Positions 40,119 to 57,368 of a stretch of 64,000 nucleotides of DNA are shown in pieces. This DNA is from a virus (Duplodnaviria > Caudoviricetes). The notes under the pieces are model-generated. The model saw nothing but the letters and a program-made list of their open reading frames with translations. It made no database searches and had not been told where the DNA came from. Every line of letters begins with the position of its first letter. Position 1 is the stretch's first letter. The stretch lies in IMG/VR virus record IMGVR_UViG_2893071988_000005, positions 1 to 64,000 of that record. One strand, given 5' to 3'. A program made the translations under genes and the position numbers.

Positions 40119-40427
40119 TCATTGAAGTACTTCGCGGCTACCATCCGGCAGGGCGATCACCGTGTCAGCGATATTGCTCGGTTGCCCGAATTTCGCATTG
40201 AAGAGGGTTTCACCAGCCGGCGTGATCTCGAAGTCATGCTGCCCGTGCAAGGCGACGTATTCGCCGCTCGCCAATGTCAGGGCGGCGAAGACGAGCTGGA
40301 GCTTGACCGCATCGGGGATTGCGGCGGCGTGCAGCAATTCGTGCCGGTTCACCCGTGAAACACCCTTGTTTTTGGCCCGAAGGAGCAAGTCGAGAACGCA
40401 CCACTGAGCGTCAGTCAGATTGGCCAT
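40119..40427 (-). CDS. Winged-helix-like hypothetical protein
   Basis: GGAGG RBS; 'LTDAQW...FEITPAGE'. Confidence 0.55.
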   Translation of the reverse strand: MANLTDAQWCVLDLLLRAKNKGVSRVNRHELLHAAAIPDAVKLQLVFAALTLASGEYVALHGQHDFEITPAGETLFNAKFGQPSNIADTVIALPDGSREVLQ

Positions 40428-41208
40428 GATCGCCTCCGGGGGCGGCTCCGTCCGTGTCTGTGGTGACCACAGGCCATTGCCGGATAAGAAGATCATCCGG
40501 GATCGGGGCTTTCCGGGTCATTTGCTTCATGAAGAACGCTCGGCCGAGCGCTGCGCTCTGATCCCGCAAATAGCGGAAATCATCCGGGTCGGTGTGGCGG
40601 GCCTTGTGCGATCCTTGATCGGTCTCGCCGCCCGTGATGATCAGGTCCGGTGCATACCGATCGAGGATGATGCGGCTGAGGAGCGGCTCGTAGCTGCCGA
40701 AGGTGAAGAGCGGCGACAGCGAATGCTTCACCTCCCAGAGCTTCATCCGGTCTCGGTCGTATTCCGGCTGGTTGGCGATCGTCGCGCCGATGGCGACATT
40801 ACGCGGGAGCATGCGGTGACCTCGCGCCGGATCGGTCATTTTCGTGACATTGCCGATCCGCTTGGTTAGGAGCAGCCAGATCAAGTTTGGCGTGGCCTCG
40901 ATCAGGTTCATGAGGTCGTAACGCCACATCTCATCGACCTCGTTGTCGAAGACGTCAGCGAGTGAGGCGCAGAACACGCGTGGCCGGGTGCCACTGGCGG
41001 CAGCTTCCTTGTCCCAGGCGATTGGCTTGCGCCAATTTGCCCTGCCTGTGCGCTGGCGATCCTCGCCGGCACCCCACTGCACGCGGCCGTACCGGTTCGC
41101 CATAAGGTTTTCCGCATAGCACCCGTCACAGGCCGGGGAGACTTTCGTGCATCCGATCCACGGATTGAATGTATGGTCGGTCCATTCGATCTTGCTGTTT
41201 TCAGCCAT
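40411..41208 (-). CDS. Phage Gp37/Gp68 (DUF5131) family protein
   Basis: 'SKIEWTDHTFNPWIGCTKVSPACDGCYA', 'FCASLADVF', 'LLTKR', 'GGE', 'FFMKQ'. Confidence 0.9.
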   Translation of the reverse strand: MAENSKIEWTDHTFNPWIGCTKVSPACDGCYAENLMANRYGRVQWGAGEDRQRTGRANWRKPIAWDKEAAASGTRPRVFCASLADVFDNEVDEMWRYDLMNLIEATPNLIWLLLTKRIGNVTKMTDPARGHRMLPRNVAIGATIANQPEYDRDRMKLWEVKHSLSPLFTFGSYEPLLSRIILDRYAPDLIITGGETDQGSHKARHTDPDDFRYLRDQSAALGRAFFMKQMTRKAPIPDDLLIRQWPVVTTDTDGAAPGGDHGQSD

Positions 41209-42748: not shown

Positions 42749-43397
42749 GGTCACGCCCTCCATCGAGCGCGGGCGGAGTGATCGGGCACCAGTGGGTGAA
42801 CTCGTAGTTGCTCGGTTTGGCTTTGTCGTCGTCGTGCTTGATGAGGCCATCATGATCGGCCAGCCACCAAGGGCCGTTTTGGGACCGGCGAATGACGAGA
42901 TAGCGATGCTCGCCGAGCCACATGTATCTGGCGAGGATCGCCGTACCGTCTTTCGGGGCGGTCTCGATGGGGCGCCAGTCGTCTGCCGTGACGGCGTAGA
43001 TTGTCGGGTCCTGCGTCTCCTGCACGATGGTCAGCAGGCTTTCGGTCTTGCCGAGCGCTTGGGCCTTCACAATGACGACGGAGCCCGCGCCGGAGGGCCT
43101 GATGATGGCCCGGATCGAGCGTAGGAGGGGAGATACGCCCTCCTGCAAATCGTCGTCCTCGAACCCAGAAATGAAGGATTCGGCGGCGAGTAGCGCGGTA
43201 AACATCTGAGGGGCTGCAGCCATCTGGCGAGCAAGGGAGGCCAGCGCATCGGTCGGCCATTTCAGCGGCGTGCTGAGTTCGAAAATCGGCATGGGCGCGG
43301 CTGTGCTGATGTAGCCGAACGGCATGGGCTCGCCATCGATGGCGGAGCCGTAAAGCGAATGCGGTTCGAACTGCAAGGGGAGAGGGAACGGGTTCAT
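42741..43397 (-). CDS. Mosaic phage protein with DUF551-like C-terminus
   Basis: 'MAAAPQMF', 'WRPIETAPKDGT...THWCP'. Confidence 0.7.
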   Translation of the reverse strand: MNPFPLPLQFEPHSLYGSAIDGEPMPFGYISTAAPMPIFELSTPLKWPTDALASLARQMAAAPQMFTALLAAESFISGFEDDDLQEGVSPLLRSIRAIIRPSGAGSVVIVKAQALGKTESLLTIVQETQDPTIYAVTADDWRPIETAPKDGTAILARYMWLGEHRYLVIRRSQNGPWWLADHDGLIKHDDDKAKPSNYEFTHWCPITPPALDGGRDHG

Positions 43398-43909
43398 CGT
43401 GCCTCCGGCTGCTTCTTGATGAACATGGAAAGGGTGGCCGCGACAGGAAGTTCGCGCACGCCTTCGGCGACGGCATCGGCGACTTTCTGGAGTGAGCGCG
43501 GCTGCGTCATCATCGCGACGGTGCCGAGGATGGAAGCCTGCGCGGATGCCGCCGCTTGCTGCAGGCGGGTCAGGTTTTCGAAATCGGCCTTGGCCTGGCG
43601 CTCCAGCGCGCGCAGGGCTTTCCGCCGAACGCTTTTGGCATTGGCCGCGCCGTCTTCGACGATCTCGGCGTCATTGAGCCGGCGAAAGCCCTCGTTGCGA
43701 ACGCAGCCGAAAACCATGTCGTGGTCGCGCATGGCGCGGATGGTGGCTGTCCGGAGCGGCGCTCGCAGCTTGCTCAACGGGAGCGAGGTGATGTCTCTCA
43801 TGCGGCCGTAGGTGATGATTTCTCCGACCTCGATCTTCTTCAGTTCCTGCAGAAGCAGGCGGGATTCGACGGACATGCGGAATGAGGGTTTGGGCATGGG
43901 GTTCTCCAT
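43394..43909 (-). CDS. wHTH-like protein downstream of the RAMP-like locus
   Basis: 'VGEIITYGRM...VFGCVRNEGFRRL'; likely start 43897 after GGAG. Confidence 0.7.
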   Translation of the reverse strand: MENPMPKPSFRMSVESRLLLQELKKIEVGEIITYGRMRDITSLPLSKLRAPLRTATIRAMRDHDMVFGCVRNEGFRRLNDAEIVEDGAANAKSVRRKALRALERQAKADFENLTRLQQAAASAQASILGTVAMMTQPRSLQKVADAVAEGVRELPVAATLSMFIKKQPEAR

Positions 43910-43924
43910 GTAGAGGGGAGGCGG

Positions 43925-44298
43925 CTGGTGTATAGCGAGGCGCGACGTTGTGGGGCGCTGCGACGTGGCGAGCTGTGCAGAGGCGCGACGTGGAGTGGCG
44001 GATGTGGTGCATTTTCGGCACCTATAAGCCCTTGTGCTGCCGAGGGTTTACAGGTGCCGACCCTTTCGGGCCGGCTGGCTGATGCGGAGTGTCGCGGGGC
44101 GCAGTGGGGTGACGAGAAGCGTTGTGCTGCGGCGCGGGGTGGTGCGGGTGATGCCGTTGCCGACACCTCTGTCCCGCTCATTTCAGCAAGATAGAGGTGC
44201 CGGCCTCCGAAGAGACCGGCTGGCTGATGCTTTGTGTTGCGATGCGAGACGTTGCCGCGCGCTGCGCCGCGGTGCGACGAGTGGCGTCGTGACGCGAG
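43925..44298 (-). ncRNA. Three pentamer-repeat RNA units (C, B, A) downstream of the RAMP-like gene
   Basis: Plus-strand (GYG-NN)n tracts at 43930-44004, 44084-44146 and 44229-44298, separated by hairpins and a shared GCCGGCTGGCTGAT-like motif. Confidence 0.75.
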
Positions 44299-44299
44299 G

Positions 44300-44872
44300 T
44301 TAAACCTCAGACCACTCAAACCTCTCGACCGTGAAGCGGCCATTGAAGCCGCCTTTCTCCGGCCGGAAGCGGCCGATGCCGACGAGCCGCCCAGCTTCGA
44401 CGAGGGCCTGCTCGAAAACTTTGTTCGGGATCACCTCGTCCAGAATGGAGAAGTGCGCCTTGCCTTCCCAGGAGGGAATGTACGGAAACTTGCGGCGAAC
44501 ACGCTTGCCGCTGCCGCGCACGCCGTCGGCGTTCGCCCAGATCGTGATGGGCTGGAGCTTGTCCTTGTGGACGCCGATCGGCACGTTGCCGTCGCAGATC
44601 TGCCCGGCGACGAAGAACTTCGTGTAGGTGGACTTGCCGCGCCCGGGGATCGAAATGTTGAGACGCTTCACCGCCTCATCGATGCTCATTTTGAGAGCCA
44701 TGGCGGGGATGCAGACGGTGCCTGCGTCGTCATAGGTTGCCTTCTCCTTCCAGAGGCGAAGGTCGTAGTCGGCGGCGGATTCCTTCTCCAACTTGGGATG
44801 ATGGTCCGGGTCGATGGCGGCGGACTGGGAATAGGGCGTGGCGGATTTCAGGTGTGCGATGACGATGCGCAT
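44300..44872 (-). CDS. Stand-alone RAMP/Cas7-like protein (Vipr-like)
   Basis: N-terminal strand 'IAHLKSATP', 'CIPAMALKMSI' (cf. RAMP IPGSSLKG), C-terminal Gly loop 'GRLVGIGRFRPEKGGFNGRF'. Confidence 0.75.
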   Translation of the reverse strand: MRIVIAHLKSATPYSQSAAIDPDHHPKLEKESAADYDLRLWKEKATYDDAGTVCIPAMALKMSIDEAVKRLNISIPGRGKSTYTKFFVAGQICDGNVPIGVHKDKLQPITIWANADGVRGSGKRVRRKFPYIPSWEGKAHFSILDEVIPNKVFEQALVEAGRLVGIGRFRPEKGGFNGRFTVERFEWSEV

Positions 44873-44892
44873 TGAGGAGACCTTTCTGATGG

Positions 44893-45156
44893 GGCTGATG
44901 TGTTGCGAGGCGGGGCGACGAGCCGCAGCGCGTGGCGAAACGACGCGCGGCAGGGCGCGGCGCAGTGGGTGTTGACACCCTGAAAGCGGCCGAGGTGCCG
45001 GCAGATTTCAGGGTGCCAACTCCACAAGGGAGTTGGCGGGCTGAAGTGTGGTGTTGCGGCGCGCAGCGACGTGCAGCGGAGTGGAGCGCTACGCGGCGAA
45101 GTGGAGCATTCCGGCTCCCTTATCCATCGGCAGCTCGAGAGATAAGGCAACCGGAA
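44893..45156 (-). ncRNA. Two pentamer-repeat RNA units (E, D) upstream of the RAMP-like gene
   Basis: (GYG-NN)n tracts at 44900-44967 and 45046-45110, each with GGCTGA(T/A) on one side and a long hairpin on the other. Confidence 0.75.
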
Positions 45157-45200
45157 GCACGAAAGCGGGCGGGGTGAGGCCCTCATCCCGCCCGTTCGTG

Positions 45201-45443
45201 CTATCGGGGTTTCAGCGGTAGAACTTCCCGGACTTCCGGATCCAGCGCGGCATGCGCGGCCTCCCATTTGTCGCGGGTTTCGGTGAACCGCTCATACGCG
45301 GCACGCAATCGGGTGCCGGGTTCGCCTGTCGCGCGCTGGGTGTGGCGGAGTTCGCCGGGCCATTCCATGGGGAAGGCGAGGGCGATCTGCACCAGCCACG
45401 CGCGATCGGCGGCTCTATGGGCCTCATAGATCGAGGCGATCAA
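45201..45443 (-). CDS. Small hypothetical protein
   Basis: GGAG RBS; 'AHRAADRAW...GEPGTRLRAAYE'; followed by a long hairpin at 45157-45201. Confidence 0.55.
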   Translation of the reverse strand: MIASIYEAHRAADRAWLVQIALAFPMEWPGELRHTQRATGEPGTRLRAAYERFTETRDKWEAAHAALDPEVREVLPLKPR

Positions 45444-45633
45444 TACAATGCGTCTCCAAGGCTGGAGGGACAGGGTGCCTCCCCGTGGCGTGGGCGGGAA
45501 GGGAGGCTGGCGAGCCCGCCGATGATATTCAGCCGGCTTTCAGGCCCGGCGCATGCTGCACCTCCGCGTTTGAGGGATCGGTTGCCATTGGCCGCGCATT
45601 GGGCCGGTTGATGGGTGCGCGGCCCCGGAACGG

Positions 45634-45822
45634 TTAAACGAGGGCCGCGGCGGCGAGCGACTGCTCGACCTGGGCGAGGCGGTGCGCCATGGCGGCGCAG
45701 GCACCGACGAACGCGATGCAGAGAACAGCGAGGATCACGAGGCCGAGCTTGCGGGAGGGCGCAGGCGGTCGCTTCACCATCGGCTCAAGCACGATGGTGC
45801 GGGGTCGGGGGAGCGCGGGCAT
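45634..45822 (-). CDS. Small single-TM protein
   Basis: 'LGLVILAVLCIAFVGACAAMA'. Confidence 0.55.
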   Translation of the reverse strand: MPALPRPRTIVLEPMVKRPPAPSRKLGLVILAVLCIAFVGACAAMAHRLAQVEQSLAAAALV

Positions 45823-48267: not shown

Positions 48268-49156
48268 GCGGGTAATGCGCTGAGACTGCGATTATTTTGT
48301 AAGACGCTGAAAACAAATAGATAAAAATAATTCACATCGTATCGATAGGCATTCCGACGGCCGGACAAAGCTCGGATTTCCAACGCTGGCAAGGCCGTCA
48401 CCCAGGGTGATACTCCCCCCGGCCTGCCGGGAAAGCCGTGCATGGGGAAAGGGGGAGGGGTGTTAGAAAAAACGCTGGACGAAACAAAAGTCCGCGAGTC
48501 ATACCAATCCCCATAAGCCGGCATTGCGCCCGGCAAGAGCTTCCCCTCTCCCCCCTCATTCGAGCCGCCCGCCTGTTGCGAGGTTGGCCCTGCCGCCCGC
48601 TGATTGTGGCAGGCAGGCAATGCGCCGTCGTCACTCGATGGCCCGCACACTGGCCCTGCGCCGCGCTCATGAGGACGGGGAGAGGGGAAGGCAAGGAAGC
48701 CTCATAGGAGCGTAGCGGGAGGGGGAGAGCGTAGCGAGGGGGAAGCAGCCCTCTGCCTCTCCACCTGCCTCAGCCTGCCCGCCATGCCTGCGCTCGCCTC
48801 ACACGCTCGCCCCTGCCTGACACGCTCGCCCATGCGCTCGCCCTCACATGCGCGCAGGCCCTCACGCCCGCACACGTAGGCGCGCCCGCCCACCCGCGCA
48901 CGCACCCCCCCACGCGCAGGTTCTTCTCTCCCACCCCGGCGCCCGCGGGTCAGCGGCAGCGCACGATTTGAGCGATTTCGGTGTTTTCGATTTCGCGGTT
49001 CCGATTCCGCAATTCCCGACCGATCCGGCTTGGAATGATTTTGCGTGGATCGGGCAAAAAATGCCCGGGTGCTGCAAAGGCGAATACAAATAATTTTCTA
49101 CAGAAGCCGCTTCGGCGGCCCGATCTGTAGAACAAAGCTTTCGTTTGGAGGTTTCG

Positions 49157-49849
49157 ATGTACGTCGTGAAGAGCGGACAGAACCTCGTCGTCATCGGCCG
49201 GTTCGCGCAGATGGCCAAGCGGCTCAGCAGCAGCACGGCGAAGCGAGAGCTGTTTCGTGGTGTCGTGGACGCGGGTCGCCGGATGAAAACCGACACCCAG
49301 AAGGTCGTCACCGAGCAGATGGCGCTCAAGCGCGGGCTCTATCAGAGCTATGTCGTGGCCAACACGCGCGGCGTCGGAAGCCAGGCGCTCCTCGCCTATG
49401 ACATCTATTCGTCGAAGGGCGGCATCAAGGTCCAGAACTATAAGGGGCTCAAGTCCCTGAAGGGCGGCGGGCGTGTCGCCAAGAAGCTGAATGGCGGCCG
49501 GGCTGCGTTCGACAAGGGTACTGTCCGGTCAGGCGTCTGGAACAATCCGCGCGTCTTCAAGCGCTCGTTCGAGGTGGACGGCTCCTTCTACATGATGCGC
49601 ACGGCACAGGATGGTGTCCGGGCGCCGCGCATCTTGTGGACCCATGACAACCGGTCCTGGCAGCCGCGAACGGCGCAGGGCCGGTTCGCATCGACCGGAA
49701 CGAAGTGGGGCAAGGTTCGCCAGCTGTATGGCCCGGCGCTCGGCAAGGAAATCCCGGATGGGCAGTCGGCGGCAAACTTCATGGCTCGCGCGCCGATCGT
49801 ACTCGAGGCGGCAGTGACGCCGCGTATCGCAAAGCTCCTGAGGTACTGA
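49157..49849 (+). CDS. Minor tail/neck protein (gpZ-like)
   Basis: Basic protein with 'VRQLYGPAL'; GGAGG RBS; TGATG-coupled to the terminase small subunit. Confidence 0.65.
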   Translation: MYVVKSGQNLVVIGRFAQMAKRLSSSTAKRELFRGVVDAGRRMKTDTQKVVTEQMALKRGLYQSYVVANTRGVGSQALLAYDIYSSKGGIKVQNYKGLKSLKGGGRVAKKLNGGRAAFDKGTVRSGVWNNPRVFKRSFEVDGSFYMMRTAQDGVRAPRILWTHDNRSWQPRTAQGRFASTGTKWGKVRQLYGPALGKEIPDGQSAANFMARAPIVLEAAVTPRIAKLLRY

Positions 49850-56951: not shown

Positions 56952-57368
56952 ATGGGCATTTTCAGCCGCCTTGATCGAACAGCGAGCAGGACGGTTGATC
57001 GTGTCAACGCGATCCGGTTCACGCTCGTGCCGCAGGCATCAACGCCAAATGGCCGGCCGGGGCCGGATCCGACCCGCCACGAAGTGACCGGGCGAGGGGT
57101 CTTCGACTATGTCGCAACAGAGCAGGGGCTCCAGCTCGGCGTTCGCAAATCGTACCGAGAAGCCAACGACCTTCGCGCGCTCCAGACCGGCCGCGATCCG
57201 CAGCTATCCGTCGATCGCCGGTATTTCGGCAGCGAAGAACCGAAGCAGGGCGATATCGTCGTCTTTCCCGACAACCCGGAGCTTCCGAGCTTCGATGTGA
57301 TGTCCGTTCCTCGTGACGGCCTTTCTCGGCTTGTTCTCATGCTGTCTCACGGAGGTGCCCAGGTATGA
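56952..57368 (+). CDS. Head-tail adaptor/closure protein (putative)
   Basis: Position in the head-tail block; 'PKQGD...PRDG'. Confidence 0.65.
   Translation: MGIFSRLDRTASRTVDRVNAIRFTLVPQASTPNGRPGPDPTRHEVTGRGVFDYVATEQGLQLGVRKSYREANDLRALQTGRDPQLSVDRRYFGSEEPKQGDIVVFPDNPELPSFDVMSVPRDGLSRLVLMLSHGGAQV

What the first reader, a model, noticed from the sequence alone, without database searches (positions are those of the whole stretch)
43925..45201. Stand-alone RAMP-like gene flanked by five pentamer-coded RNA units: candidate gapped-code RNA-guided system
Seen: five non-coding tracts with strict 5-nt periodicity (plus strand 43930-44004, 44084-44146, 44229-44298, 44900-44967, 45046-45110). Each has 13-15 repeats of a near-constant triplet (GCG/GTG, occasionally GAG/ACG/GCA; CRC on the gene strand) plus a freely variable NN. 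Example, unit E: GTGtg GTGtt GCGgc GCGca GCGac GTGca GCGga GTGga GCGct ACGcg GCGaa GTGga GCAtt. Units recur every ~145-155 nt with shared hairpins and a (A/T)TCAGCC 3' motif (ACCAGCC in unit A). Two lie upstream and three downstream of a 190-aa gene with RAMP/Cas7-like hallmarks (IPAMALK; Gly loop GIGRFRPEKGGFNGRF). No cas1/2/3/5/6 is in the window. Known: RAMP proteins polymerise along guide RNAs with fixed periodicity. Inference: each subunit grips a constant triplet and displays NN, so each unit is a different guide reading a gapped target. From memory (unverified), this matches the reported phage VIPR architecture (Vipr protein plus GGY/NN RNAs), but the constant triplet here is CRC, which suggests a distinct subtype.
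Basis: partly seen in the sequence, partly recalled or inferred. Interest (0 to 1): 0.95.

Follow-up and report, generated by a model that had tools for sequence, protein, structure and literature searches.

The report
Phage VIPR system with CRC-type guides
A phage genome carries a small Cas7-like protein flanked by five candidate guide RNAs built from 5-base units (fixed C-R-C plus two free bases): a non-canonical member of the recently described VIPR RNA-guided silencing systems, so it is real and interesting but no longer a new kind of system.

Summary
Five non-coding tracts of 13-15 pentamers flank a 190-aa gene. They are the only such tracts in the window and exceed 50 Markov simulations.

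On the gene (minus) strand each unit reads C-R-Y-N-N. The triplet is conserved and the NN positions are at maximal entropy. Every tract ends in CAGCC, in register.

The protein models as a Cas7-type RAMP. Its only PDB sequence hit is SUSP1 Vipr. By hhalign it is homologous to two phage proteins that lie directly downstream of canonical GGY/NN arrays.

The gene-plus-pentamer-array layout recurs in 32 of 34 genome loci and in the 80 IMG/VR viral contigs kept (scored together with the genome loci). A conserved winged-helix-like neighbour looks like an accessory (vap-like) gene. The contig is a 78.5-kb virus record.

This is therefore a VIPR system (bioRxiv, April 2026) with a non-canonical scaffold triplet. 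An October 2026 preprint already mentions non-canonical triplets such as CAC/NN, so I file it as a new member of a known kind.

Not shown: transcription, Vipr binding, and the gap rule. No natural target was found in any search. Confidence that it is a VIPR-family locus is about 0.88.

The parts
44300..44872 (-). vipr-like gene, 190 aa: a single-RRM Cas7-type RAMP with the G-loop GIGRFRPEKGGFNGRF
   Evidence: ORF. No Pfam family. phrog_4652, function unknown, E 1.1e-5. AF2 pLDDT 87.6. Foldseek against PDB gives Cas7/Csm3 at E 1.6e-7. BFVD gives viral ~200-aa RAMPs. SUSP1 Vipr is the only PDB sequence hit. hhalign to the Vipr-like proteins of canonical loci.
45039..45108 (-). vrRNA-like unit E: 13 C-R-Y/NN pentamers (45044-45108) plus terminal CAGCC (45039-45043)
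44893..44967 (-). vrRNA-like unit D: 14 pentamers (44898-44967) plus CAGCC (44893-44897). It lies directly upstream of the vipr ribosome-binding site and start codon.
44222..44296 (-). vrRNA-like unit C: 14 pentamers (44227-44296) plus CAGCC (44222-44226). It begins 4 nt after the vipr stop codon.
44077..44146 (-). vrRNA-like unit B: 13 pentamers (44082-44146) plus CAGCC (44077-44081)
43923..44002 (-). vrRNA-like unit A: 15 pentamers (43928-44002) plus CAGCC (43923-43927). It lies directly upstream of the vap-like gene.
44968..45038 (-). Spacer E-to-D: a 9-bp hairpin directly after CAGCC, then a long hairpin that ends about 10 nt before unit D
   Evidence: Consensus fold of the three spacers: 22 pairs, 9 of them with compensatory changes, and 4 G-U cells on the minus strand. 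Single folds have z -4.1.
44147..44221 (-). Spacer C-to-B, with the same two-hairpin layout
   Evidence: z -3.9
44003..44076 (-). Spacer B-to-A, with the same two-hairpin layout
45109..45158 (-). Long hairpin 5' of unit E. Its outer edge (45158) is where similarity to a related phage contig stops.
   Evidence: z -2.3; pieces of X3 and X6 end at 45158
43394..43909 (-). vap-like accessory gene, 171 aa: an N-terminal winged-helix-like domain followed by long helices
   Evidence: tblastn relatives lie next to vipr on the same strand in 17 of 34 genome loci. AF2 pLDDT 84.1 with H-E-H-H-E-E topology. Only weak fold hits, all to winged-helix DNA-binding domains, best E 0.059. A weak profile hit to the Ada/MGMT helix-turn-helix, E 0.026.

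Best explanation
The locus 43394-45158 on the minus strand is a phage-borne VIPR (Viral Interference Programmable Repeat) system. It has a vipr gene, five vrRNA genes (two upstream, three downstream) and a winged-helix vap-like gene.

By homology with SUSP1 VIPR I infer the following mechanism. Vipr protomers polymerise along each vrRNA, one per pentamer. They bury the constant triplet (here C-R-Y instead of G-G-Y) and present the two variable bases. The 12-14 displayed dinucleotides pair with a DNA target in which one base is skipped between pairs. The filament then blocks transcription of a competing mobile element.

Shown here: the repeats, their conservation pattern, the RAMP fold, homology to Vipr proteins of canonical loci, the family-wide gene-array association, and the phage context.

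Inferred: transcription, binding, the 1-nt skip rule, silencing, and the identity of the targets.
For: 1. Repeats beyond chance, with a conserved triplet and maximal-entropy NN.

2. Cas7-type fold.

3. SUSP1 Vipr is the only one of 177,635 PDB sequences matched. The hit improves from E 1.6 to 0.0077 with a 28-sequence profile and aligns on the G-loop.

4. The only phage-record tblastn hits below E 1 are Pseudomonas phage LESphi2 and phage DSL-LC04. Both are ~200-aa genes directly downstream of canonical GGY/NN arrays on the gene strand. hhalign gives probability 96.4% (E 1.1e-9) and 97.7% (E 2.1e-12).

5. Period-5 tracts flank the gene in 32 of 34 genome loci. In 105 loci with 15 or more pentamers, the gene-strand triplet has C at position 1 in 92 and G in 13, with C at position 3 throughout. 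The G-type members read GGC/NN on the gene strand, which is the canonical motif. This fixes the RNA strand.

6. The spacer hairpins covary and contain 4 G-U cells on the minus strand. Three of these cells appear as A-C mismatches in the plus-strand fold.

7. None of the window's five NN strings recurs in the 114 related loci beyond shuffled controls, while the triplets and the CAGCC end are shared with close relatives.

8. The vap-like neighbour is conserved.

9. The contig is a virus record with terminase, portal, capsid-protease and baseplate genes. 235 IMG/VR contigs encode relatives.

10. The published description of VIPR matches: one vrRNA upstream and an array downstream, 9-16 repeats, a vap gene, no cas genes, mostly viral.
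Against: The defining triplet is not GGY: position 1 is C in 62 of 69 units.

The SUSP1 residues said to read the guanines are not kept. D177 aligns with R168, which is invariant in 28 of 28 family members, and R138 aligns with F129. Scaffold recognition must therefore differ, and the gap rule could differ too.

The five searches for natural targets are in Tried and rejected.

There is no direct evidence of transcription, and no sigma-70-like promoter or intrinsic terminator was found in 43300-45700.

Two units (D and A) lack the downstream hairpins, so a uniform structured 3' tail as in SUSP1 is not evident.
Confidence: 0.88

Rival explanations
1. The RNAs are made from the plus strand, so the units read G-Y-G/NN and run antisense to vipr.
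For: The two spacer hairpins also fold on that strand (-27.2 kcal/mol, 10 pairs with compensatory changes).
Against: Homologous loci with G at position 1 read the canonical GGC/NN on the gene strand. So do the canonical loci of LESphi2 and DSL-LC04. Cells that are G-U on the minus strand are A-C mismatches on the plus strand: 4 G-U cells on minus against 3 broken A-C cells on plus. The minus-strand consensus energy is also lower, -29.7 against -27.2 kcal/mol. The pyrimidine-only position (69 of 69) matches Y3 of GGY only on the minus strand.
Confidence: 0.03
2. The tracts act as DNA, for example as iterated binding sites for the winged-helix neighbour or as recombination or packaging repeats, and the RAMP-like protein has another role.
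For: A DNA-binding-like protein is encoded alongside. No transcript evidence was obtained.
Against: Iterated protein-binding sites do not normally keep 3 fixed and 2 fully random positions over 13-15 units. The same layout accompanies this protein family in 32 of 34 genome loci, whether or not the winged-helix gene is detected there (17 of 34). For the homologous SUSP1 system the arrays were shown to be RNAs bound by Vipr (paper text). The hairpin covariation with G-U pairs points to RNA.
Confidence: 0.03
3. It is a VIPR-like ribonucleoprotein, but with a different output from SUSP1. It could use another gap rule, target RNA, or regulate the phage's own or host genes rather than silence rival elements.
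For: The scaffold-contact residues differ from SUSP1. The searches with the 1-nt-skip rule are in Tried and rejected. The cryo-EM paper reports that Vipr-vrRNA can also pair with ssRNA.
Against: The own contig shows no match above shuffled controls for gaps of 0, 1 or 2, so self-regulation is not supported. The fold elements that set the skip in SUSP1 (thumb and helical bundle) are present in the model. The accessory protein is of the DNA-binding type, as in the repressing VIPR types.
Confidence: 0.06

Closest known systems
Type II VIPR of Escherichia phage SUSP1 and the Pseudomonas fulva prophage (bioRxiv 10.64898/2026.04.26.720920 and 10.64898/2026.04.26.720927; Results and some Methods sections read)
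   Same: A ~190-200-aa single-RRM RAMP with a G-loop and thumb. vrRNA genes of 9-16 pentamers with a fixed triplet and free NN, on the gene strand, both upstream and downstream of vipr. An accessory DNA-binding-type gene. Phage-borne, with no cas genes and no CRISPR array. G-loop core G-x-G-x-aromatic-R-P, with the aromatic residue and the Arg kept (W178 to F169, R179 to R170).
   Different: The triplet is C-R-Y, not G-G-Y. SUSP1 D177, which reads G1, is Arg here, and R138, which contacts G2, is Phe here (alignment, contacts). The 3' end is a short in-register CAGCC plus simple hairpins, not a shown pseudoknot tail. Sequence similarity is detectable only with profiles. Function was not tested.
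Non-canonical VIPR array clusters in the Evo-PIN/COMPASS preprint (bioRxiv 10.64898/2026.10.21.760802; passages and section 4.22 read)
   Same: Period-5 arrays beside Vipr-like folds, with fixed triplets other than GGY. The text names GAC/NN and CAC/NN. Both occur in this protein family (CAC is the consensus of 30 tracts and GAC of 3).
   Different: The preprint text does not name CGC or CRC, which is the dominant form here (310 of 427 tracts). Its Fig. S10 and the cluster lists could not be seen, so I cannot say whether this exact family is included.
Class 1 CRISPR backbone subunits (Cas7 of type VII, Csm3, Cmr4, gRAMP)
   Same: RRM core, thumb and G-loop fold. Best Foldseek hits E 1.6e-7 to 1e-5, TM 0.5-0.6.
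   Different: No CRISPR array. No Cas family among the 10 neighbouring proteins scanned against PADLOC. The period is 5 nt instead of 6. The guide is interrupted rather than contiguous.

Membership tests
VIPR system | Vipr protein: a small stand-alone RAMP (single RRM, thumb, glycine-rich loop) homologous to described Vipr proteins | tested here: met
   (fold). (SUSP1 Vipr is the only PDB sequence hit; E 0.0077 with the profile). (hhalign E 1.1e-9 and 2.1e-12 to proteins beside canonical arrays).
VIPR system | Flanking non-coding arrays of tandem 5-nt units with three conserved and two hypervariable positions, 9-16 units each | tested here: met
   Five arrays of 13-15 units. Entropies are 0.59, 1.31 and 0.32 bits for the triplet against 1.99 and 1.98 bits for NN. 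Beyond chance.
VIPR system | Conserved triplet is GGY (canonical definition) | tested here: not met
   C-R-Y: C 62 of 69, purine 63 of 69, pyrimidine 69 of 69. The discovery paper allows 'a related consensus', and a later preprint lists non-canonical triplets. This fails only the canonical sub-definition.
VIPR system | Arrays lie on the vipr strand, in intergenic DNA upstream and/or downstream of vipr | tested here: met
VIPR system | Invariable, structured 3' tail after the repeat tract | tested here: inconclusive
   All five units end in an in-register CAGCC, which is shared with close relatives only. Covarying hairpins follow three of the five units. No pseudoknot was tested.
VIPR system | Accessory vap gene with a DNA-interacting fold | tested here: inconclusive
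   A conserved 171-aa neighbour in 17 of 34 loci. The model is winged-helix-like, but the best fold E-value is only 0.059. Homology to the published vap1-6 could not be tested because no sequences were at hand.
VIPR system | Mostly virus- or provirus-borne, with no cas genes and no CRISPR array | tested here: met
   Virus record with head, tail and replication genes. TRF finds no CRISPR-like array in 64 kb. None of the 10 neighbouring proteins hits a Cas model in PADLOC. The other ORFs of the window were not scanned for cas genes.
VIPR system | vrRNAs are expressed as ~100-nt RNAs and co-purify with Vipr | not testable with these tools
   No listed run is on record as RNA.
VIPR system | NN dinucleotides specify dsDNA targets with one skipped base between pairs | tested here: inconclusive
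   No match above controls.
CRISPR-Cas class 1 effector | Cas7 backbone encoded with other cas genes and a CRISPR repeat-spacer array | tested here: not met

The most novel reading that the evidence does not exclude
The C-R-Y family may be an orthogonal branch of VIPR. In this reading the first scaffold base switched from G to C together with the protein pocket. The Asp that reads G1 in SUSP1 is Arg here. Residues 113-114 are A-N in C-type loci and V-P in G-type loci.

If so, these Vipr proteins would load only their own vrRNAs and ignore GGY-type 'solo' decoy vrRNAs of rival elements. The recognition code, or the gap rule itself, may also differ. That would give a second, non-cross-reacting programmable scaffold.
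Probability: 0.3. Interest if true: 0.6.

Novelty: new member of a known kind. Interest (0 to 1): 0.4.

Why it matters
VIPR is a very recent class of RNA-guided DNA binders that use an interrupted guide. This locus belongs to a large viral family: 973 clusters at 50% identity and 235 IMG/VR contigs.

The family keeps the architecture but replaces the scaffold triplet and the residues that read it in SUSP1. It also contains both C-type and G-type members that differ at a few protein positions. That offers a natural experiment on how the scaffold triplet is recognised, and a possible source of mutually orthogonal Vipr/vrRNA pairs.

Tried and rejected
Natural targets: none found.

1. I scanned the own 78.5-kb contig and 114 related loci (0.66 Mb) with the five NN strings at gaps 0 to 3. 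The best scores equal those of shuffled guides, except for the guides' own DNA at gap 3.
2. I ran 323 guides from all loci against 0.75 Mb. Matches of 85% or more numbered 1, 2 and 3 for gaps 0, 1 and 2, and none reached 90%.
3. I scanned IMG/VR with exact 1-nt-gap seeds.
   - A 9-NN seed of unit E gave 0 hits.
   - 8-NN seeds of E, D, C, B and A gave 15, 30, 26, 7 and 6 hits.
   - The flanking NN of those hits matched at chance level. Best totals were 21/26, 23/28, 22/28, 21/26 and 19/30.
4. I searched 301 genomes of the order of the Devosia riboflavina genome with unit B at up to 3 mismatches, and got 0 matches. The other four guides were not searched there.
5. I scanned the metagenome contigs.
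   - A 10-NN seed of B gave 0 hits.
   - A 9-NN seed of D gave 12 hits.
   - The best was 24/28, in an ORF that I recognise from memory as IspF-like. I did not test that name. I take the hit as a chance match to a conserved coding motif.

These seeds require long exact runs, so targets with scattered mismatches would be missed. The host pangenome was not available.

Expression. No RNA holder is listed. Contigs of four runs covered only neighbouring genes and said nothing about the tracts.

Other negative or unavailable results.
- Rfam: nothing near a gathering score in 43300-45800, and no hammerhead.
- TRF does not detect the degenerate period-5 arrays.
- No promoter or terminator consensus.
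- Relatives of the genome cannot be drawn for a virus record.
- I considered a CRISPR remnant and rejected it.
- Supplementary figures S16-S17 of the discovery paper and S10 of the October preprint could not be seen. They may show this very family or motif.
Full report
**What is there**

Between 43923 and 45108 the window holds five non-coding tracts with strict 5-nt periodicity around a 190-aa ORF at 44300-44872 on the minus strand.

I scanned all 64 kb on both strands for 12 in-phase G-Y-G-N-N pentamers. Only five clusters have 7 or more of 12 matches, with maxima of 8 to 11. Fifty Markov-1 simulations never exceeded 7.

Read on the gene strand and anchored on a terminal CAGCC that every unit carries in register, the units have 13, 14, 14, 13 and 15 pentamers:

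| Position | Composition (of 69) | Entropy (bits) |
|---|---|---|
| 1 | C 62 | 0.59 |
| 2 | G 43, A 20, T 5, C 1 | 1.31 |
| 3 | C 65, T 4 (never a purine) | 0.32 |
| 4 | variable | 1.99 |
| 5 | variable | 1.98 |

All 16 dinucleotides occur at positions 4-5.

**The protein**

- It has no Pfam family.
- It has one PHROG of unknown function, phrog_4652, E 1.1e-5.
- An AlphaFold2 model built on 28 homologues is confident: pLDDT 87.6, pTM 0.82.
- Foldseek against the PDB returns Cas7 of type VII, Csm3, Cmr4 and gRAMP first, from E 1.6e-7 with TM 0.5-0.6. There are 169 hits at E of 1e-3 or better.
- In BFVD the three hits at E of 1e-3 or better include two viral ~200-aa proteins (208 and 194 aa). 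One of them is named a RAMP superfamily protein.
- By sequence, the only chain of 177,635 distinct PDB sequences that matches is 'SUSP1 Vipr protein' (36pp_D). The E-value is 1.6 with the single sequence and 0.0077 with the family profile, aligned over the thumb-to-G-loop region.

**An independent link to canonical VIPR**

A tblastn search of 50,697 phage records gave only four weak hits, in three phages. The two below E 1 are a 194-aa gene of Pseudomonas phage LESphi2 and a 205-aa gene of phage DSL-LC04.

The intergenic DNA directly upstream of both genes consists of canonical GGY/NN arrays on the gene strand.

hhalign of the family alignment against these two proteins gives:

- LESphi2: probability 96.4%, E 1.1e-9 over 144 columns.
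- DSL-LC04: probability 97.7%, E 2.1e-12 over 134 columns.

The window's protein is thus homologous to proteins of canonical-type VIPR loci.

**The association holds across the family**

The family is large:

- 2034 proteins at E of 1e-3 or better among 2156 candidates.
- 973 representatives at 50% identity.
- 34 loci in species-representative genomes.
- 235 IMG/VR contigs, of which 80 were kept.

Period-5 tracts flank the gene in 32 of the 34 genome loci. The two without tracts are cut off right after the gene.

Automated calling found 427 tracts of 9 or more pentamers in 114 loci plus the own contig. Gene-strand consensus triplets were CGC 310, CTC 49, CAC 30, GGC 29, GAC 3 and others 6.

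Among 105 loci with 15 or more pentamers near the gene, position 1 is C in 92 and G in 13, and position 3 is C throughout.

**Which strand is the RNA**

- The G-type members read GGC/NN, the canonical motif, on the gene strand. Together with the two canonical loci, this fixes the RNA strand for the whole family.
- Within the window, the three inter-unit spacers fold into two hairpins with 22 pairs, 9 of them with compensatory changes, and 4 G-U cells on the minus strand.
- On the plus strand three of these cells are A-C mismatches, and the consensus energy is weaker: -27.2 against -29.7 kcal/mol.

**Variable against constant parts among relatives**

None of the five NN strings recurs in the 114 related loci beyond shuffled controls (gap-3 scan). 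This holds even though relatives reach 72-78% protein identity.

The triplet and the terminal '..CRC-AY-CAG-CC' are shared with the closest relatives L001, L035-L037 and L039.

**Surroundings**

- The record is a 78.5-kb virus contig with terminase, portal, capsid-protease, baseplate, sliding-clamp, ligase and ParB-like genes.
- Directly downstream of unit A lies a 171-aa gene, 43394-43909(-).
  - tblastn finds relatives next to vipr, on the same strand, in 17 of 34 genome loci.
  - Its model (pLDDT 84.1) has a winged-helix topology followed by long helices.
  - Fold matches are weak, best E 0.059 with none at 1e-3 or better, but the listed matches are almost all to winged-helix DNA-binding domains.
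  - The profile weakly hits the Ada/MGMT helix-turn-helix, E 0.026.
  - It is a plausible counterpart of the DNA-binding-type vap genes described for VIPR types II, VI and VII. This is an inference.
- No CRISPR-like array is found in the window.
- None of 10 neighbouring proteins hits a Cas model in PADLOC. The remaining ORFs were not scanned.

**Comparison with what is published**

VIPR was described in two bioRxiv preprints of April 2026. I read the Results and parts of the Methods. They report:

- a ~200-aa ancestral RAMP;
- vrRNAs of 9-16 YNNGG units with a 3' tail;
- a 1-nt-skip pairing rule on dsDNA;
- transcriptional silencing of rival phages and satellites;
- seven types, with 'GGY/NN or a related consensus'.

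A third preprint covers satellite competition; I read its abstract and section 17.

An October 2026 preprint, of which I read passages and section 4.22, reports 21 clusters with non-canonical triplets, 'e.g. GAC/NN or CAC/NN', beside Vipr-like folds.

The window's locus therefore belongs to a known kind, and its type of deviation is already in print.

I could not establish whether this exact family and the CGC/CRC consensus are among the published types or clusters. The relevant supplementary figures and tables are closed. The main texts do not mention Alphaproteobacteria, Devosia or 'Rhizobi'.

**Where it differs from SUSP1**

In the alignment, the SUSP1 residues that the cryo-EM paper says read the scaffold map as follows:

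| SUSP1 residue | Role in SUSP1 | Residue here |
|---|---|---|
| D177 | hydrogen bonds to G1 | R168, invariant in 28 of 28 |
| W178 | stacks on G2 | F169 |
| R179 | cation-pi on Y3 | R170 |
| R138 | salt bridge to G2 | F129 |

The two canonical phage proteins keep the Asp.

The contacts to Y3 are thus kept, in line with the strictly pyrimidine position 3. The contacts to G1 and G2 are replaced, in line with the changed position 1 and relaxed position 2.

Within the family, residue 114 is Pro in 13 of 13 G-type loci but in 1 of 92 C-type loci, where Asn holds in 87 of 92. Two C-type loci that sit among G-type loci in the leaf order of the tree have Asn, and one C-type locus has Pro. G-type loci are mostly one clade, so this is a lead and not proof of co-evolution.

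**Mechanism**

By homology I take the SUSP1 mechanism as the most likely: a filament of one protomer per pentamer, NN displayed, gapped pairing with DNA, and silencing of a rival element.

The searches for natural targets found nothing above controls. They are listed under Tried and rejected. They show only that I did not confirm the gap rule or the targets.

Transcription could not be examined either.

**Verdict**

This is a genuine VIPR-family locus with a non-canonical C-R-Y scaffold. I rate the novelty as a new member of a known kind and the interest as moderate (0.4). The main open point is whether the C-type scaffold defines an orthogonal recognition class.

Noticed in passing
window 45158: Contigs of a related organism (X3, a 58.9-kb contig) and of a wastewater run (X6) match 45158-45450 almost perfectly and then diverge exactly at 45158, the outer base of the hairpin 5' of unit E. 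The VIPR locus looks like a cassette inserted or exchanged at this point in an otherwise related phage.
   Followed up: partly
window 44531-44536 (residues 113-114 of the 190-aa protein); loci L014, L015, L033, L097 and others: The protein motif A-N-A-D-G goes with C at scaffold position 1, and V-P-(A/S)-D-G goes with G. Pro is found in 13 of 13 G-type loci and in 1 of 92 C-type loci (L014 is the exception). This may be a determinant of scaffold base 1, but the G-type loci are mostly one clade.
   Followed up: partly
L199 1666-1997 (Pseudomonas phage LESphi2, OQ594955.1) and L200 1745-2005 (Phage DSL-LC04, OR003939.1): Both isolated phages carry canonical GGY/NN arrays upstream of a ~200-aa Vipr-like gene. 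The gene is annotated 'hypothetical protein' in one record and 'helix-turn-helix transcriptional regulator' in the other. In LESphi2 the locus lies beside the CI repressor gene.
   Followed up: partly
window 45109-45158, 44975-45020, 44155-44205, 44015-44060: Four of the five units (E, D, B, A) are preceded by a long stable hairpin that ends about 8-17 nt before the first pentamer. Unit C, right after the vipr stop, has only a short one. Whether these are 5' handles, tails of the preceding RNA or processing sites is open.
   Followed up: partly
L007 1606-1866, L013, L020, L033 and other loci: Some relatives have much longer uninterrupted period-5 tracts, up to 52 pentamers in L007 and up to 79 in the automated calls. 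These may be the 'staggered' arrays mentioned in the discovery paper.
   Followed up: no
window 48708-48872: Three short tandem repeats of 18-19 nt lie in the non-coding stretch upstream of the gene at 49145-49849, which precedes the large terminase gene. They may be a packaging or regulatory region.
   Followed up: no
window 40411-41208 (-): A 265-aa protein matches phrog_2045 (E 4e-70) and the PADLOC candidate-defence models PDC-M41B and PDC-M30B (E 4e-29). It lies 2.2 kb downstream of the vap-like gene.
   Followed up: no
window 57049-57093: The automated caller also flagged 9 pentamers with a G-T-C consensus inside a coding region. I take this as a false positive of the period-5 detector.
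   Followed up: no
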